A stretch of DNA of 42,858 bases from Escherichia phage Halfdan: sequence record NC_072811.1. The stretch is one strand, 5' to 3'. This document shows positions 33,294 through 42,835 of the stretch, piece by piece (within the stretch, counting starts at the first letter, position 1; the number at the start of each line of letters is the position of its first letter). Made by a program: the position numbers and the translations under genes. Below the pieces are notes generated by a model. It worked only from the letters and a program-made list of their open reading frames with translations. It did not search any database and was not told the DNA's origin.

Positions 33294-33917
33294 ATGACCC
33301 AACCCAAACCCTTCAACTATCAAGCGGAAGCCGTGCAAACCCTGTCGGCTTCGTTCTTTGGCGAATTCGTAAGCCGCGCCGAATTGCTTGGCGCACTGCA
33401 AGCGTTCAGCATCGCCGCCGCCCGGCTTGACGAAATCAAGAAACGCCTGTTCTACGGCCGCAACGTCGAAGCGATGCCGATGTTCGTTCCCGAAGAATCC
33501 ATCGAATCCAGCGAAATGCCTTGGACTTCGGCCGAAGAAACCATCGCGCACGCAATCATCGGCGTCGGCACCGAAGCGGGCGAACTGGCCGACGGTCTTA
33601 TCGCCGCACTGATTAACAAGTTCGGCGGCCAGCCTACCGGCTTCGACCTTGTGAACCTTGGCGAAGAAGGCGGCGACGTTCTTTGGTATCTGGCCGCACT
33701 GGCCCAAGGAACCGAAATCAGCATCGACGGTATGATGCGGGCGAACATCGCCAAACTTCGCAAACGCTACCCGAACAAGTTTACCGCATACGACGCGAAT
33801 AACCGCGACCTTGGCGGCGAACGCGACATTCTGGAATTGATGCAACCGAACTTGCCGGGTATCACTTCGCCGGATGCCGAATTGAAACATCGCATCGAAA
33901 GCGAAAAAGACGCTTGA
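33294..33917 (+). CDS. MazG-like nucleoside triphosphate pyrophosphohydrolase
   Basis: 207 aa; TEAGELAD and GEEGGDVLWYLAAL motifs. Confidence 0.7.
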   Translation: MTQPKPFNYQAEAVQTLSASFFGEFVSRAELLGALQAFSIAAARLDEIKKRLFYGRNVEAMPMFVPEESIESSEMPWTSAEETIAHAIIGVGTEAGELADGLIAALINKFGGQPTGFDLVNLGEEGGDVLWYLAALAQGTEISIDGMMRANIAKLRKRYPNKFTAYDANNRDLGGERDILELMQPNLPGITSPDAELKHRIESEKDA

Positions 33918-33942
33918 CGCGCCGGTTCGATTGACGTATATT
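33914..33942 (+). promoter_or_regulatory. sigma70-like promoter upstream of gene 33995..34462
   Basis: TTGACG (33914-33919), 17-nt spacer, TATATT (33937-33942); overlaps the mazG-like stop codon; followed by leader hairpin 33953-33971. Confidence 0.5.
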
Positions 33943-33994
33943 TCTATTCAACGGGCCGAATTGGTCGGCCCGGTTTAACGAAAGGGTAATCGAA

Positions 33995-39400: not shown

Positions 39401-39703
39401 ATGCGAGTAACTACCGAATGCAACACTTGCCACGGCGGAACCGGCCAGCCGTTCCCGTGTTCGTGCGCCGTAAAGGCTACCGTATCACCCGACAGCAACG
39501 TCGAAAAGAACCGCGAAATGCTGTTGCAACGGTCTATCGTCGGACTTGCCAAATACGGCGTAACGACCGATAATAACCCGTTGACCCTTCGCGAATGGCT
39601 GCAACACGCGTTGGAAGAAGCCTTAGATATGGCGAACTACCTTCAAGCCGCGATTACCGAAATCGACCGGAGTACCGAACATGGCGAAAGCAACAGCCGC
39701 TAA
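39401..39703 (+). CDS. hypothetical protein with N-terminal Cys4 motif
   Basis: 100-aa ORF. Confidence 0.4.
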   Translation: MRVTTECNTCHGGTGQPFPCSCAVKATVSPDSNVEKNREMLLQRSIVGLAKYGVTTDNNPLTLREWLQHALEEALDMANYLQAAITEIDRSTEHGESNSR

Positions 39704-40700
39704 GGGTCGCAGTCGCGCCCGCAAGGCTAAGGAAACGTCGGCCGCCGCTGGTTTCCTTGAAGCCCTGAAATTCGTATCGGCCGCCCAAAAGAAGGGCGGT
39801 CATATCTACCAACAACACGTAGTCATACAGAACCAGACGATTAGCGCGTTCGACGGTCAATTGACCATCGGCCGACGCATCGAAGAAGACTTGACCGCGT
39901 GCCCGCAATCCGACTTGCTGGCGGCGGCCCTTGGTAAATGTGGGGAACAGTTCAGCATTACCCAAGGCGACAACAGCCGGATAACGATTCAGTCGGGCAA
40001 GTTTAAGGCCGTCGTACCGTGCGTCGATTTAACGTCGATGCCGACCACGTATCCCGACCCGAATATCGCCGTAATCGACAACCGCATTAAAGAAGGGTTC
40101 GCGGCCGTTATGGCGCTGGCTACCGAAGGCGCGGCGTCGGTTCTTGAAGCGTCTTTGTTGCTGCAAGCGAATTCCGTATACGCGACTAACAAAATCGTCG
40201 TGTTGGAGTTCTGGCACGGAATCGACTTGCCGCCCGGATTGGTTATCCCGAAAGCCGCCGCACAAGTTATCGCCAAGTCGGAACGCGATTTAGTCGGCTT
40301 CGGCTTTTCGGCATCTTCGGCGACGTTCTGGTTCGACGACGAATCGTTTATCAAAACGCAACTGTTTTCGGAATGCTGGCCGAACGTTGACGCCATTTTG
40401 AACAAGAACGTTAACCCGTGGCCGCTTCCCGACGGATTCTTCGACGCGGTTAAGGCCGTCGCTTCGTTTACCGCAACGGGTAACGTATACTTCGCAAAAG
40501 GCGAAATGCGGTCGCATCCAGACGGCTTGGACGGGGCGCAATACGAAGTCGAAGGGTTGCCAGCGGGCCAAGCGTACAACGGCAAATTGCTGTTGATGAT
40601 TGAACCGTATATGTTGTCGGCCGACTTTACGTCGTATAATGGTCAAGCGTTCTTCTTCGGTGACGGCATCCGGGGCGCAATAGCGGGGATTCGAAACTAA
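39681..40700 (+). CDS. putative sliding-clamp-like protein
   Basis: 339-aa ORF immediately upstream of the polymerase; only weak pattern resemblance to beta-clamp domains; Lys/Arg-rich N-terminal extension. Confidence 0.3.
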   Translation: MAKATAAKGRSRARKAKETSAAAGFLEALKFVSAAQKKGGHIYQQHVVIQNQTISAFDGQLTIGRRIEEDLTACPQSDLLAAALGKCGEQFSITQGDNSRITIQSGKFKAVVPCVDLTSMPTTYPDPNIAVIDNRIKEGFAAVMALATEGAASVLEASLLLQANSVYATNKIVVLEFWHGIDLPPGLVIPKAAAQVIAKSERDLVGFGFSASSATFWFDDESFIKTQLFSECWPNVDAILNKNVNPWPLPDGFFDAVKAVASFTATGNVYFAKGEMRSHPDGLDGAQYEVEGLPAGQAYNGKLLLMIEPYMLSADFTSYNGQAFFFGDGIRGAIAGIRN

Positions 40701-42835
40701 TGTTCTTCGATGATTTGGATTTAGCGCCGAATAAGCGGTCGAAGGTGAAGACGAAAGGCCCGTTTGTGCCGAAAGTCTTAACCTTCCCCGCAATTATCAA
40801 CCGGCCTTACGTCGAATTTACCGACCGCGAACTATGGGAAGCGCGGGGCGGTACTATGGTTTTCGATATCGAATGTTATTGGAACTATTTTCTAATAGCA
40901 TTTAAGGATATCGCAACGAACAAGGTTGTTACGTTCGAACTGTCGCCAGATTGCCCACAATTCAGCCAAGCGGATTTGAACAAACTTAATTGGGTCGTTC
41001 ATTCGTTCCGGCATATCAGTTTCAACGGTATCAAGTTCGACCGGTTCTTACTGTTCCTTGCGCTGGCCGGTGCGCCAATGAACGTACTTAAATACGTTAC
41101 GAACCGGCTTATCAACGACAACAAGCGGCCGGTTAAAGGCGATGCCGATTACGGACTAGAAACCAAAGACCGCAAGTCGTATCGCAAAGAAGACATAGAA
41201 AAAGAATTCAACATTCGGATACCGGAGTTTAACCACGTTGACCTAATCGAAGTCGCCCCGCTTCAAGCGTCGTTGAAGACGTATGCGGGGCGTTTGCACG
41301 CGCCACGTATGCAAGACTTGCCATACGAACCCGAAACCATATTGACCCGCGAACAGGCGGTTAACGTTCGGTTCTATTGCGTAAACGACTTGGATAACAC
41401 GGCGCTACTGTTCAAGGACTTAGAACCGCAAATTAAGTTGCGTGAACAGCTTTCGACCGAATACGGGCAAGACCTTCGTTCGCTTTCCGATGCACAAATC
41501 GCCGAACACGTATTGTCGGCGGAATGTGAAAAGTTGAACGGATACTATGCCCGCAAACCGAAGATTGCGCCCGGTACTGAATACTATTACGTTCCCCCGG
41601 CTTTCGTTCACTTTCAAACGCCGATGTTGCAACAGATATTGCAACGGCTGGTCGATTCACCGTTCGTAATCAGCGAAAAGGGGCGGCCGAAATCGTCGTT
41701 CCTTAAAGGTCTGAAAATCCGTATAGGCGATTCGGTCTATACAATGGGCGTCGGCGGTCTGCATTCAACCGAGAATTGCGCGGCGCATTATGCCCGCGAC
41801 GGTTACTTGTTGATTGACCGCGACGTTGCATCGTATTACCCGAATATCATTATCAATAACGGATACTTCCCGAAACACCTTGGCCCGGCGTTCCTTACCG
41901 TATATAAGACCATCGTTGCGCGTCGTCTTGAAGCGAAGGGGTTGTCGAAGTCTTCCGACCTGTCGGTCGCAGAACTTAACCAGATTATCGCCGATAGCTT
42001 GAAGATTACGATTAACGGTTCGTTCGGTAAGTTGGGGTCGAAGTATTCGGCGCTGTATTCGCCCGACCTTCTGATTCAAACCACGTTGACCGGCCAACTT
42101 TCGTTGTTGATGCTAATTGAAATGCTGGAACTTGTGGGCATCAAGGTTATTTCGGCGAACACCGACGGTATTGTTATTAAGCCGCACGAAAGCCAGTACG
42201 AACAGCTTAACGAAATTATCGCCGCATGGGAAAAGCTAACCGGTTTTGAAACCGAAGAAACCCAATACAAAGGCGTATTCAGCCGCGACGTTAACAACTA
42301 TATCGCGTTGAAAAAGCATTACGACAAGGCGTCGAAATCTTGGGTCGATACGTTCCCCGAAGGTACGAAGTTCGACAAGCTGTACAAGGGTAAAGGCGTG
42401 TTCGGCGAAACCACGTTGAAGAAACAACCGACCAACGAAATTTGCGCGAAGGCGATTGCGCATTTCCTTATCGAAGGTAAGACCATTGCCGAAACGGTAA
42501 ACGGTTGCCGCGATATCAAGGATTTCGTAACGGTTAAGAACGTGAAGGGCGGTGCCGAAAAAGACGGCTTATTCTTGGGCAAGGCGATTCGCTGGTACTA
42601 CGCGAAAGGCGTTACCGGAACGATTAACTACATTATGAACGGTAACACGGTCGGCAATAGCGAAGGCGCTTGCCCGATTATGGATTTACCCGACGCGTTC
42701 CCGGCTGATATGGATTTCGAACAGTATACGAACATGGCCGAAGATATGTTGTCGGATATGGGCTATTACGGGCCGAAGAAGGCGAAGCGTCCCGACCTGT
42801 TCGAAGACTTGGAAGGGTCGGGCGAAGGCTGGTAA
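40700..42835 (+). CDS. DNA polymerase, family-B-like, with 3'-5' exonuclease domain
   Basis: 711 aa; Exo I FDIEC, Exo II FNGIKFD, Exo III YCVND; polymerase motifs DVASYYPNII, KITINGSFGKLG, ISANTDGIVI. Confidence 0.7.
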   Translation: MFFDDLDLAPNKRSKVKTKGPFVPKVLTFPAIINRPYVEFTDRELWEARGGTMVFDIECYWNYFLIAFKDIATNKVVTFELSPDCPQFSQADLNKLNWVVHSFRHISFNGIKFDRFLLFLALAGAPMNVLKYVTNRLINDNKRPVKGDADYGLETKDRKSYRKEDIEKEFNIRIPEFNHVDLIEVAPLQASLKTYAGRLHAPRMQDLPYEPETILTREQAVNVRFYCVNDLDNTALLFKDLEPQIKLREQLSTEYGQDLRSLSDAQIAEHVLSAECEKLNGYYARKPKIAPGTEYYYVPPAFVHFQTPMLQQILQRLVDSPFVISEKGRPKSSFLKGLKIRIGDSVYTMGVGGLHSTENCAAHYARDGYLLIDRDVASYYPNIIINNGYFPKHLGPAFLTVYKTIVARRLEAKGLSKSSDLSVAELNQIIADSLKITINGSFGKLGSKYSALYSPDLLIQTTLTGQLSLLMLIEMLELVGIKVISANTDGIVIKPHESQYEQLNEIIAAWEKLTGFETEETQYKGVFSRDVNNYIALKKHYDKASKSWVDTFPEGTKFDKLYKGKGVFGETTLKKQPTNEICAKAIAHFLIEGKTIAETVNGCRDIKDFVTVKNVKGGAEKDGLFLGKAIRWYYAKGVTGTINYIMNGNTVGNSEGACPIMDLPDAFPADMDFEQYTNMAEDMLSDMGYYGPKKAKRPDLFEDLEGSGEGW

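What the first reader, a model, noticed from the sequence alone, without database searches (positions are those of the whole stretch)
33294..42835. Replication module pairs a family-B-like polymerase with a prim-pol primase on the opposite strand and a Sak4/Cas4-type recombination set
The polymerase shows family-B exonuclease and polymerase motifs in a compact 711 aa, preceded by a possible clamp-like ORF with a basic N-terminal extension. The primase is encoded at the head of the leftward unit rather than with the polymerase. A Cas4-like Fe-S nuclease, Sak4-like ATPase and low-complexity partner suggest recombination-dependent replication. The polymerase and clamp calls rest on motifs read by eye and need confirmation.
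Basis: partly seen in the sequence, partly recalled or inferred. Interest (0 to 1): 0.4.

Follow-up and report, generated by a model that had tools for sequence, protein, structure and literature searches.

The report
Phage Halfdan DNA replication and recombination genes

Summary
The window is the complete 42,858-bp genome of Escherichia phage Halfdan (genus Lokivirus).

- **ORFs:** every ORF named in the finding exists at the stated coordinates.
- **Polymerase (40700-42835):** it is family B. It carries all the motifs, its AlphaFold model matches only family B polymerases over its full length, and it matches Pol alpha and Pol II by sequence. It has no Pfam hit.
- **Clamp (39681-40700):** this ORF folds as a full three-domain bacterial beta clamp. 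It has an acidic core and a conserved, disordered basic N-terminal tail.
- **Primase (30624-32930, minus strand):** it lies outside the given span. It is an AEP prim-pol fused to a DUF3987 helicase.
- **Recombination set:** a Sak4 ATPase, a DUF669 SSB and a Cas4-like Fe-S nuclease are confirmed. A RadD-like helicase sits with them.
- **Prior description:** the same gene order was described for Pseudomonas phage 73 and Burkholderia phage KL1 in 2011-2012, so the module is already known.

No clamp loader is encoded. Two small extras emerged. The polymerase has disordered tails with clamp-binding-like motifs, and these are absent from a sister clade that has no adjacent clamp gene. An SSB-tip-like "IPF" C-terminus ends exactly one module protein per locus in 36 loci. 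Both are untested leads.

The parts
40700..42835 (+). Family B DNA polymerase with 3'-5' proofreading domain, 711 aa. Motifs: ExoI D56/E58; ExoII N109..D114; ExoIII Y226..D230; motif A D375-VAS-YYP; motif B K435-ITIN-GSFG; motif C S-A-N487-T-D489-G. It lacks the canonical N-terminal domain. Both tails are disordered: the N-terminus MFFDDLDL and the C-terminal ...RPDLFEDLEGSGEGW.
   Evidence: invariant columns; pLDDT 88.3; fold; sequence; PHROG 1252, 1e-199. No Pfam hit.
39681..40700 (+). Three-domain bacterial-type (DnaN-like) sliding clamp, 339 aa. The first ~16-21 residues form a disordered basic tail (conserved RARK core). The folded core is acidic, pI 4.9.
   Evidence: PHROG 947, 9e-60. 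No Pfam or NCBIfam hit.
39401..39703 (+). 100-aa protein of unknown function (PHROG 11184). It overlaps the clamp start.
   Evidence: (no Pfam hit).
39160..39390 (+). 76-aa protein with four conserved Cys (Zn-ribbon-like). It ends in ...DFDIPF, resembling the E. coli SSB C-terminal tip. Its start overlaps the stop of the helicase gene.
   Evidence: (PHROG 23504).
37527..39170 (+). RadD/YejH-like SF2 helicase (ResIII + Helicase_C), 547 aa.
   Evidence: (NF053632 RadD, 8e-81, below the curated cut-off).
36555..37526 (+). Cas4-like PD-(D/E)xK exonuclease (D148, E166-x-K168, Q194xxxY198). C71 plus C260-x2-C263-x5-C269 are the probable Fe-S ligands, and a second conserved 4-Cys set follows (C279, C282, C295, C312). 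An alternative start at M30 (36642) would remove the overlap with the upstream ORF.
   Evidence: (PHROG 1990, 9e-99). No Pfam or PDB sequence hit.
36122..36637 (+). DUF3268 zinc-finger protein, 171 aa.
   Evidence: 9.8e-35.
35252..36061 (+). DUF669 SSB-like protein with a G/N/Q-rich low-complexity tail ending ...PAWGQPR.
   Evidence: DUF669, 6e-13; PHROG 6015 SSB, 3e-76.
34515..35195 (+). Sak4-like core-only RecA-type ATPase / single-strand annealing protein (AAA_24; Walker A GPPGSGKT).
   Evidence: 3.6e-17; PHROG 124, 6e-40.
33995..34462 (+). DUF7173 protein, conserved upstream of Sak4 in relatives.
   Evidence: (1.8e-53).
33294..33917 (+). MazG-like nucleotide pyrophosphohydrolase, the first gene of the rightward unit.
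33143..33293 (.). Divergent intergenic region with back-to-back sigma-70-like promoter matches (+ strand 33215-33243; - strand 33202-33174).
   Evidence: These are consensus matches only.
32930..33142 (-). 70-aa HTH-like ORF heading the leftward unit. Its counterpart in phage KL1 is annotated as a transcriptional regulator.
   Evidence: (weak CYNS_N HTH hit, below the cut-off).
30624..32930 (-). Primase-helicase fusion, 768 aa: N-terminal AEP prim-pol domain, NrS-1-type helical bundle domain and DUF3987 helicase domain.
   Evidence: SaPI5 primase-helicase 7ola, 9.5e-29; NrS-1 primase, ~1e-27; PHROG 3022, 5e-258.
27920..28579 (-). VRR-NUC domain nuclease in the leftward unit. It is a possible junction-processing partner of the recombination set and lies outside the finding's span.
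   Evidence: 3.2e-5, just above the cut-off.

Best explanation
This is the replication and recombination module of the lytic siphovirus Halfdan. It is arranged as two divergent transcription units around a 150-bp intergenic region.

Shown:
- The rightward unit ends in a clamp gene followed directly by a proofreading family B polymerase gene.
- The leftward unit begins with a small HTH-like ORF followed by an AEP primase fused to a DUF3987 helicase.
- Between them lie MazG, DUF7173, Sak4, a DUF669 SSB, a Zn-finger protein, a Cas4-like Fe-S exonuclease, a RadD-like SF2 helicase and two small ORFs.

Inferred:
- The primase-helicase unwinds and primes, and the PolB extends primers.
- The polymerase is tethered to a dimeric ring of the phage's own beta-type clamp through short motifs in its disordered tails: N-terminal MFFDD and C-terminal RPDLF, the latter resembling the bacterial QLxLF clamp-binding motif.
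- Because no clamp loader is encoded and the clamp core is as acidic as E. coli beta, the ring is most likely loaded by the host gamma/tau complex.
- The Cas4-like nuclease resects ends, and SSB plus Sak4 anneal single strands. The RadD-like helicase and the VRR-NUC nuclease process branched DNA. Together these would give recombination that supports concatemer formation or restart of replication.
For: Identity of the window.

Polymerase is family B:
- Invariant Exo I-III and motif A-C residues in 44 homologues.
- AF2 model with pLDDT 88.
- Sequence hits to Pol alpha (1e-6 single sequence, 1e-8 profile) and to Pol II, plus PolB equivalogs in NCBIfam.

Clamp: pLDDT 91 and pTM 0.85; DnaN clamps of Pseudomonas and E. 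coli at E 1e-18 and TM 0.75 across about 360 alignment columns; the profile hits DnaN at 7.6e-4.

Clamp and polymerase adjacency: 43 of 67 IMG/VR loci with enough upstream DNA have the clamp ORF directly upstream on the same strand.

Tail motifs:
- Polymerase residues 13-18 and 695-711 have pLDDT below 50, and the first two 10-residue blocks average 52 and 49.
- FF/LF motifs are conserved at the N-termini, and xSLF/xLFF at many C-termini.
- 42 of 43 clamp-linked polymerases have at least 30 aa before ExoI, against 1 of 24 without an adjacent clamp. C-terminal aromatic tails occur in 18 of 43 against 0 of 24.

No clamp loader: the full annotation of a 98.8%-identical genome lists none, and Pfam scans of the remaining larger ORFs find none.

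Acidic clamp core: pI 4.89, against 5.25 for E. coli beta.

Primase-helicase. DUF3987 proteins are argued to be replicative helicases in PMC4889955.

Recombination set. PMC3483164 and PMC5928155 report recombineering activity for the Sak4 of phage PA73, and one search shows that PA73's close relative KL1 has the same gene order. HK620 Sak4 anneals ssDNA and is stimulated by its neighbouring SSB.
Against: - Nothing here tests activity.
- The link between the polymerase tails and the clamp rests on one evolutionary split. The 23 polymerases without an adjacent clamp form a single clade, so the 2x2 table is not independent evidence.
- 'Clampless' means no homologue within about 10 kb. Phage AH2, of the BcepNazgul type, has a 209-aa protein annotated as a beta subunit elsewhere in its genome.
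- The Halfdan C-terminal motif lacks the Gln of the canonical motif and lies 11 residues from the end.
- Whether a host loader can open a clamp that is only 11-12% identical to host beta is unknown.
- Pfam gathering thresholds are not reached for the polymerase, the clamp or the nuclease.
- Motif C reads NTD rather than DTD.
Confidence: 0.8

Rival explanations
1. The clamp homologue is not a closed, loader-dependent ring. It would instead be a processivity factor that binds DNA directly, like herpesviral UL42/UL44, using its basic N-terminal tail. That would explain the absence of a clamp loader.
For: No loader is encoded in the genome. All 47 homologues carry a basic N-terminal segment with an RARK/RARR core, median net charge +4. 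Kazlauskas and Venclovas proposed this mode for viral clamps that lack loaders (PMC3201878).
Against: Their criterion was a raised pI on the DNA-facing surface. Here the folded core has pI 4.89 (family median 5.11), as acidic as E. coli beta at 5.25. The model covers all three domains of DnaN at TM 0.75, which is compatible with a head-to-tail dimer ring. The tail is short and disordered.
Confidence: 0.2
2. The PolB is an accessory repair, translesion or gap-filling polymerase, as E. coli Pol II is. Bulk genome synthesis would be done by host Pol III recruited to the phage beta-type clamp and primase-helicase.
For: The clamp is of the bacterial beta type, the partner of Pol III and Pol II. The sequence matches include E. 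coli Pol II. No loader is encoded, so host replication proteins are needed in some way.
Against: The polymerase keeps invariant proofreading and catalytic residues. It is widespread: 910 phage records in the phages collection match it, 379 of them over at least 80% of its length. It is directly linked to the clamp gene in 43 of 67 loci. The phage clamp is only 11-12% identical to host clamps, so recognition by Pol III alpha is not assured. Analyses of dsDNA viruses of this size treat such PolBs as the replicase.
Confidence: 0.1
3. The Sak4/SSB/Cas4-like/RadD-like genes serve repair, genome-end processing or counter-defence. They would not drive recombination-dependent replication.
For: The phage has a complete priming apparatus, so initiation that depends on an origin or a primase is possible without recombination. 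PA73 Sak4 gave only low-level recombineering.
Against: The cassette is conserved in the same order next to the replicase in many relatives. This argues for a function tied to replication. No data here separate the alternatives.
Confidence: 0.35
4. The polymerase belongs to family A.
Against: Those family A hits have aligned lengths of only about 180-210 residues, consistent with the shared exonuclease domain. All matches with longer aligned lengths (303-444 residues) are family B. Motifs A, B and C are of the family B type. The sequence hits are to Pol alpha and Pol II.
Confidence: 0.01

Closest known systems
Replication module of Pseudomonas phage 73 (PA73), Burkholderia phages KL1 and BcepGomr, Septimatrevirus and Lokivirus phages
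   Same: Same gene order in KL1, reading from the polymerase: DNA polymerase, 'DNA polymerase III beta subunit', small unknown, SF2 helicase, exonuclease ... Sak4-type recombinase, unknown, pyrophosphohydrolase. A divergent transcriptional regulator and the primase follow on the other strand (KL1 table, PMC3483164). Beta-clamp homologues of phages 73 and BcepGomr are shown in PMC3201878. The BcepGomr PolB is listed in the PolBmain cluster of PMC7544198. The Halfdan paper names Ab26, Loki and IMEAB3 as relatives with a common gene organisation.
   Different: Halfdan is a distinct species that infects E. coli. Its proteins are about 45-60% identical to those of the relatives listed. No qualitative difference in module content was found.
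E. coli DNA polymerase II with the beta clamp
   Different: The phage enzyme lacks the N-terminal domain: ExoI lies at residue 56. Its motif C is NTD rather than DTD. It has a second candidate motif at its N-terminus. It is encoded next to its own clamp, which is only 11-12% identical to host beta. It is presumably the replicase rather than a repair enzyme.
T4/RB69 gp43-gp45-gp44/62 replicase
   Different: T4 uses a two-domain, trimeric PCNA-like clamp and encodes its own loader. Halfdan has a three-domain bacterial-type clamp and no loader.
NrS-1 primase-polymerase and SaPI5 primase-helicase
   Same: The N-terminal AEP domain and helical bundle domain are homologous, at E 1e-27 to 1e-28 (Pfam PF22763). 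Like the SaPI5 protein, it is fused to a C-terminal helicase.
   Different: The helicase part is a DUF3987 domain. Neither polymerase-type extension activity nor helicase polarity has been tested.
HK620 / PA73 Sak4 with its cognate SSB
   Same: A core-only RecA-like ATPase (AAA_24) encoded next to a distant SSB homologue. An exonuclease gene is nearby.
   Different: The Halfdan SSB is a DUF669 protein whose tail ends in PW(G/A)x(R/K), not in the acidic ...PPF or ...IPF tip that HK620 Sak4 needs. In Halfdan the acidic IPF tip sits on a separate 76-aa protein.

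Membership tests
Family B DNA polymerase (RNA/DNA-primed 'PolBmain') | Exo I (DxE), Exo II (Nx2-3[F/Y]D) and Exo III (Yx3D) motifs | tested here: met
   D56/E58, N109..F113-D114 and Y226..D230. These are invariant or at least 90% conserved in 44 homologues.
Family B DNA polymerase (RNA/DNA-primed 'PolBmain') | Motif A DxxSLYPS and motif B Kx3NSxYG | tested here: met
   D375-VAS-YYPN and K435-ITIN-GSFG-K. The key residues are invariant, and the region aligns to Pol alpha motif B.
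Family B DNA polymerase (RNA/DNA-primed 'PolBmain') | Motif C YxDTDS with two aspartates | tested here: inconclusive
   The sequence is S-A-N487-T-D489-G. The second Asp is kept and the first is an invariant Asn. It aligns with YGDTDS of Pol alpha. PolB groups with a substituted first Asp are known, such as PolB_SITDG.
Family B DNA polymerase (RNA/DNA-primed 'PolBmain') | Family B fold (exo, palm, fingers, thumb) | tested here: met
Family B DNA polymerase (RNA/DNA-primed 'PolBmain') | Pfam DNA_pol_B (PF00136) at the gathering threshold | tested here: not met
   No Pfam family at E<=0.01. Some homologues carry a precomputed PF00136 hit. The NCBIfam PolB models match far below their cut-offs.
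Family B DNA polymerase (RNA/DNA-primed 'PolBmain') | Canonical N-terminal domain preceding the exonuclease domain | tested here: not met
   ExoI is at residue 56, and the first two 10-residue blocks of the model average pLDDT 52 and 49. In the sister clade the protein starts 5-21 aa before ExoI. The positions of ExoI in RB69 and archaeal enzymes come from established knowledge.
Bacterial beta sliding clamp (DnaN) | Three tandem clamp domains in one ~340-370 aa chain | tested here: met
   Foldseek matches DnaN structures over 355-363 alignment columns, TM 0.75, E 1e-18. The model has pLDDT 91.
Bacterial beta sliding clamp (DnaN) | Detectable sequence homology to DnaN | tested here: met
   The profile of 47 homologues hits H. 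pylori DnaN at E 7.6e-4. The single sequence gives nothing. There is no Pfam or NCBIfam hit. Identity is 11-12%.
Bacterial beta sliding clamp (DnaN) | Head-to-tail homodimer forming a closed ring around DNA | not testable with these tools
   Only a monomer could be modelled. The acidic core pI of 4.89 is compatible with a ring clamp under the criterion of PMC3201878.
Bacterial beta sliding clamp (DnaN) | Cognate AAA+ clamp loader | tested here: not met
   None is annotated in the 98.8%-identical genome, and none was found by Pfam among the remaining larger ORFs. A host loader is inferred.
AEP prim-pol / primase-helicase | AEP catalytic domain (DxD and sxH motifs) homologous to characterised prim-pols | tested here: met
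   SaPI5 primase-helicase 7ola at 9.5e-29 and the NrS-1 primase at ~1e-27. The aligned motifs are FIDLDD and SPSGKGVH.
AEP prim-pol / primase-helicase | Helical bundle domain and C-terminal helicase domain | tested here: met
   PF22763 NrS1-1_pol-like_HBD at 4.4e-7 and PF13148 DUF3987 at 1e-13, both above their cut-offs.
Cas4 / RecB-type Fe-S nuclease | PD-(D/E)xK active site plus QxxxY | tested here: met
   D148, E166, K168, Q194 and Y198 are at least 90% conserved in 29 homologues.
Cas4 / RecB-type Fe-S nuclease | Four Cys for a [4Fe-4S] cluster (one N-terminal Cys plus CX2CX5C) | tested here: met
   C71 (93% conserved) with C260, C263 and C269 (100%). Cluster binding itself was not tested.
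Cas4 / RecB-type Fe-S nuclease | Profile match to curated Cas4 or PDDEXK models | tested here: not met
   No Pfam, NCBIfam or PDB sequence hit. The only matches are PHROG 1990 'Cas4-domain exonuclease' at 9e-99 and PHROG 1706 at 2e-8.
Sak4 single-strand annealing ATPase | Core-only RecA-like P-loop ATPase of the AAA_24 family with an adjacent SSB gene | tested here: met
   PF13479 at 3.6e-17 and PHROG 124 at 6e-40. The DUF669 SSB gene is immediately downstream.
Sak4 single-strand annealing ATPase | ATP-dependent annealing stimulated by the SSB C-terminal tip | not testable with these tools
   Shown for HK620. The Halfdan SSB ends in ...PAWGQPR, a different tip.

The most novel reading that the evidence does not exclude
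The module may be wired together by short terminal peptides that let a phage PolB replisome run on its own beta-type clamp without encoding a loader. Three elements would be involved.

(i) The disordered FF/LF termini of the polymerase would dock on the phage clamp.

(ii) An SSB-Ct-like acidic ...IPF-COOH tip ends exactly one protein per locus in 36 loci: the small Zn protein in Halfdan, and the clamp itself or the RadD-like helicase in relatives. This tip could recruit a reader of the SSB tip. One candidate is the chi subunit of the host clamp loader, which would load the phage clamp. Other candidates are Sak4 or the polymerase, the latter as in T7.

(iii) The conserved basic N-terminal tail of the clamp and the distinct PW(G/A)x(R/K) tip of the SSB would be further nodes in the same network.
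Probability: 0.2. Interest if true: 0.6.

Novelty: already known. Interest (0 to 1): 0.22.

Why it matters
As a catalogue entry it matters little. The phage is published, the genes are annotated in close relatives, and the same module was described more than ten years ago.

It is useful as a confirmed case in which by-eye motif reading was correct even though Pfam does not recognise the polymerase, the clamp or the nuclease.

It also points to an abundant but biochemically uncharacterised kind of phage replicase. One search found more than 7,000 related proteins, and one search found 910 phage records. This replicase is a compact PolB without the N-terminal domain, working with a phage-encoded bacterial-type clamp and no loader. 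How that clamp reaches DNA is an open question, already raised for loader-less viral clamps in PMC3201878. The terminal-peptide patterns seen here offer concrete handles for experiments on it.

Tried and rejected
- **Pfam:** gave no hit for the polymerase, the clamp, the Cas4-like nuclease or the two small ORFs. Family assignment therefore had to come from PHROGs, structure prediction and PDB searches.
- **Single-sequence PDB searches:** gave only a chance thioredoxin match for the clamp. They gave nothing for the nuclease or the SSB and only marginal matches for Sak4, mostly AAA+ ATPases at E>=0.18.
- **Family A polymerase:** considered and rejected.
- **Hidden clamp loader:** searched for and not found.
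- **Fisher test:** the association between the polymerase N-extension and an adjacent clamp gave p=1e-15. I reject this as independent statistical evidence, because the clampless polymerases form one clade in a neighbour-joining tree.
- **PolB clade placement:** I could not place the polymerase in one of the five PolB clades of PMC7544198. The main text does not mention these phages. The supplement lists only BcepGomr under PolBmain.
- **76-aa protein homologues:** a homologue search returned only 3 proteins. Its family had to be assembled from the fetched loci instead.

Full report
**What the window is.** The 9.5-kb region matches Escherichia phage Halfdan_Juelich_variant at 98.8% identity over 100% of its length, and phage Shy at 98.6%. 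The polymerase protein is 100% identical to 'DNA polymerase subunit [Escherichia phage Halfdan]' on a 42,858-bp contig. Halfdan (MH362766) is 42,858 bp, the same length as the window. The window is therefore the whole genome of a published lytic siphovirus, now classified in Lokivirus. Its authors noted a common gene organisation with Septimatrevirus phages (Ab26), Lokivirus phages (Loki, IMEAB3) and phiAxp-1.

**Checking the observation.** All the ORFs cited exist with the stated ends.
- The rightward unit runs from 33294 to 42835. In order it encodes a MazG-like enzyme, DUF7173, Sak4/AAA_24, a DUF669 protein with a G/N/Q-rich tail, a DUF3268 zinc finger, a Cas4-like nuclease, an SF2 helicase, two small ORFs, the clamp candidate and the polymerase.
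- The primase lies at 30624-32930 on the minus strand, outside the finding's coordinates. It is preceded only by a 70-aa HTH-like ORF.
- The 150-bp gap between the two units contains back-to-back sigma-70-like hexamer pairs. This fits a divergent control region, but these are consensus matches only.
- Two starts are probably downstream of the mechanical ORF starts: Sak4 at 34515 and the SSB at 35252, by comparison with the annotated variant.

**The polymerase.** Several independent lines show it is family B.
- In 44 homologues the ExoI (D56, E58), ExoII (N109, D114), ExoIII (Y226, D230), motif A (D375, S378, Y380, P381), motif B (K435, N439, F442, G443) and motif C (N487, T488, D489, G490) residues are invariant or nearly so.
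- phmmer aligns residues 403-503, spanning motifs B and C, to human Pol alpha at E 1e-6. A family profile improves this to 1e-8 and adds Sulfolobus PolB1 and E. coli Pol II.
- NCBIfam PolB equivalogs match weakly.
- The AlphaFold model (pLDDT 88.3) matches only family B enzymes among the top 50 Foldseek PDB hits.

Two features depart from the textbook enzyme. The canonical N-terminal domain is missing, with ExoI at residue 56. Motif C is NTD rather than DTD, invariantly. The family is large: more than 7,000 proteins in the metagenome-scale search and 910 phage records. The BcepGomr homologue is in the PolBmain cluster of a published PolB census.

**The clamp.**
- PHROG 947 'DNA polymerase processivity factor' matches at 9e-60.
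- The model is confident (pLDDT 91.2, pTM 0.85). Only residues 1-16 fall below pLDDT 50.
- Foldseek aligns it over about 360 columns to DnaN clamps of Pseudomonas, E. coli and Acinetobacter at E 1e-18, TM 0.75 and 11-12% identity.
- A profile of 47 homologues reaches H. pylori DnaN by sequence alone, at E 7.6e-4.

It is a three-domain bacterial-type clamp, not a PCNA/gp45-type clamp. The basic N-terminal extension is a family feature: every homologue has a K/R-rich segment with an RARK/RARR core. The folded core is acidic, at pI 4.89 with a family median of 5.11, against 5.25 for E. coli beta.

**No clamp loader.** The annotated genome of the 98.8%-identical variant lists none. Pfam scans of the remaining larger ORFs find a DUF7303 protein, a VRR-NUC nuclease and a dCMP deaminase, but no AAA+ loader subunit. 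Kazlauskas and Venclovas showed polIII-beta homologues in phages 73 and BcepGomr. They argued that loader-less viral clamps tend to have raised pI and may bind DNA directly. By that criterion the Halfdan clamp looks like a ring clamp. I therefore favour loading by the host complex and keep direct binding through the basic tail as a rival.

**How polymerase and clamp may connect (inferred).**
- Both polymerase tails are disordered in the model.
- The N-terminus reads MFFDDLDL, and the C-terminal tail contains RPDLF. Across homologues the N-terminus is [M/G][F/L]F[W/D/N][D/E]. Many C-termini end in QASLF, TLFF, SARLF or QIGLF, very like the bacterial QLxLF clamp-binding motif (established knowledge).
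- In 67 IMG/VR loci with enough upstream DNA, 43 have the clamp ORF directly upstream of the polymerase.
- 42 of those 43 polymerases have at least 30 aa before ExoI (median 64). In contrast, 23 of the 24 polymerases without an adjacent clamp start 5-21 aa before ExoI and have no aromatic C-terminal tail (0 of 24, against 18 of 43).
- The 23 clampless polymerases form one clade, so this reflects a single evolutionary split and not repeated co-loss. It is suggestive only.
- Relatives of that clade may carry a shorter clamp-like gene elsewhere in the genome, such as AH2 gp20.

**The primase.** The N-terminal 275 residues are homologous to the AEP domains of the SaPI5 primase-helicase (7ola, 9.5e-29) and the NrS-1 primase-polymerase (~1e-27). 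The FIDLDD and SPSGKGVH motifs align. Pfam adds the NrS-1 helical bundle domain and DUF3987. A published analysis argues that DUF3987 proteins are replicative helicases, often fused to AEP primases. The protein is therefore a primase-helicase and is probably the replicative helicase of the phage.

**The recombination set.**
- Sak4: AAA_24 at 3.6e-17 and PHROG 124.
- Its neighbour is a DUF669 protein (PHROG 6015 'SSB') with a long G/N/Q tail.
- The nuclease has conserved D148, E166-x-K168 and Q194xxxY198. It also has C71 plus C260-x2-C263-x5-C269, the Cas4/AddB arrangement of Fe-S ligands, and a second conserved four-Cys set. It has no Pfam or PDB sequence hit.
- The helicase resembles RadD/YejH (8e-81, below the equivalog cut-off).
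- A VRR-NUC nuclease sits in the leftward unit.
- PMC3483164 and PMC5928155 report recombineering activity for PA73 Sak4, and PA73's close relative KL1 has the same gene order. HK620 Sak4 anneals ssDNA in an ATP- and SSB-dependent way.

That recombination drives replication in Halfdan is plausible but untested. The complete priming machinery means it is not required by the gene content.

**Comparison with what is known.** The KL1 table lists, in order, DNA polymerase, DNA polymerase III beta subunit, unknown, SF2 helicase, exonuclease ... recombinase, unknown, pyrophosphohydrolase, followed by a divergent transcriptional regulator and the primase. This is the Halfdan arrangement gene for gene. 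The close Halfdan variant is annotated with the same functions. Hence the rating 'already known'.

**Side observation.** The 76-aa ORF at 39160-39390 has four conserved Cys and ends in DFDIPF, resembling the E. coli SSB C-terminal tip DDDIPF (motif cited).
- In related loci the tip (acidic residues plus [ILV]PF at the C-terminus) ends exactly one module protein per locus in 36 loci. It is on the small Zn protein in 18, the clamp itself in 9 and the RadD-like helicase in 9, and never on two proteins in one locus.
- The background rate of such endings is 0.3% of ORFs.
- The DUF669 SSBs carry a different conserved tip, PW(G/A)x(R/K).
- I found no description of this pattern in one literature search.
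- It may mark an interaction that the whole module depends on. Candidate readers are host chi/clamp loader, Sak4 or the polymerase. None of these was tested.

**Verdict.** The module is ordinary and already described. Interest is low, apart from the untested terminal-peptide leads.

Noticed in passing
window 39160-39390 (+); also L022 8756-9985, L025 8847-9962, L012 1-1767 and other loci: A 76-aa four-Cys protein ends in DFDIPF, like the E. coli SSB C-terminal tip. In 36 related loci the acidic ...[ILV]PF-COOH tip ends exactly one module protein: the small Zn protein (18 loci), the clamp (9) or the RadD-like helicase (9). No locus has two. It is absent from the 24 loci of the clampless clade.
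   Followed up: partly
window 35252-36061 (+), C-terminus; homologues in L004-L083: The DUF669 SSB-like proteins do not end in an acidic IPF tip. They share a different C-terminal motif, P-W-[G/A]-x-[R/K] (Halfdan ...PAWGQPR), after a low-complexity G/N/Q/P/A linker.
   Followed up: partly
window 42152-42169 (polymerase residues 485-490): Motif C of the polymerase is S-A-N-T-D-G. The first Asp of the canonical DTD is an Asn that is invariant in all 44 aligned homologues.
   Followed up: partly
window 39681-39743 (clamp residues 1-21): The basic N-terminal tail of the clamp has a conserved RARK/RARR core in all 47 homologues. Some relatives add an acidic/hydrophobic 'DxDVPLP' segment in front of it.
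   Followed up: partly
window 39401-39703 (+): This 100-aa ORF of unknown function overlaps the clamp start. It gives local tblastn identities of 69-87% in loci L025, L031 and L038, where the neighbouring clamp is only 45-48% identical. It has no Pfam hit.
   Followed up: no
PP954860.1 (L001/L003), whole record: A phage 98.8% identical to coliphage Halfdan is recorded with host Pseudomonas taiwanensis (soil, Germany). The next nearest relative, Pavpe01, infects P. syringae. Either the host range is unusually broad or the host label needs checking. The portal and large terminase of that record are listed only as 'similar to' features.
   Followed up: no
L040 8553-9401 (+): This is the one locus inside the clamp-bearing clade that has no clamp gene upstream of the polymerase. 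A 283-aa ORF of unidentified function occupies that position. The polymerase keeps its N-terminal extension with an LFW motif.
   Followed up: no
window 27920-28579 (-) and 26136-26597 (-): The leftward unit also encodes a VRR-NUC domain nuclease and a dCMP deaminase. The nuclease may belong functionally with the recombination set.
   Followed up: no
window 36555-36641: The annotated start of the Cas4-like gene overlaps the upstream DUF3268 gene by 83 nt. The PHROG alignment begins at residue 31, and Met30 (36642) lies just after the upstream stop, so the true start may be there.
   Followed up: no
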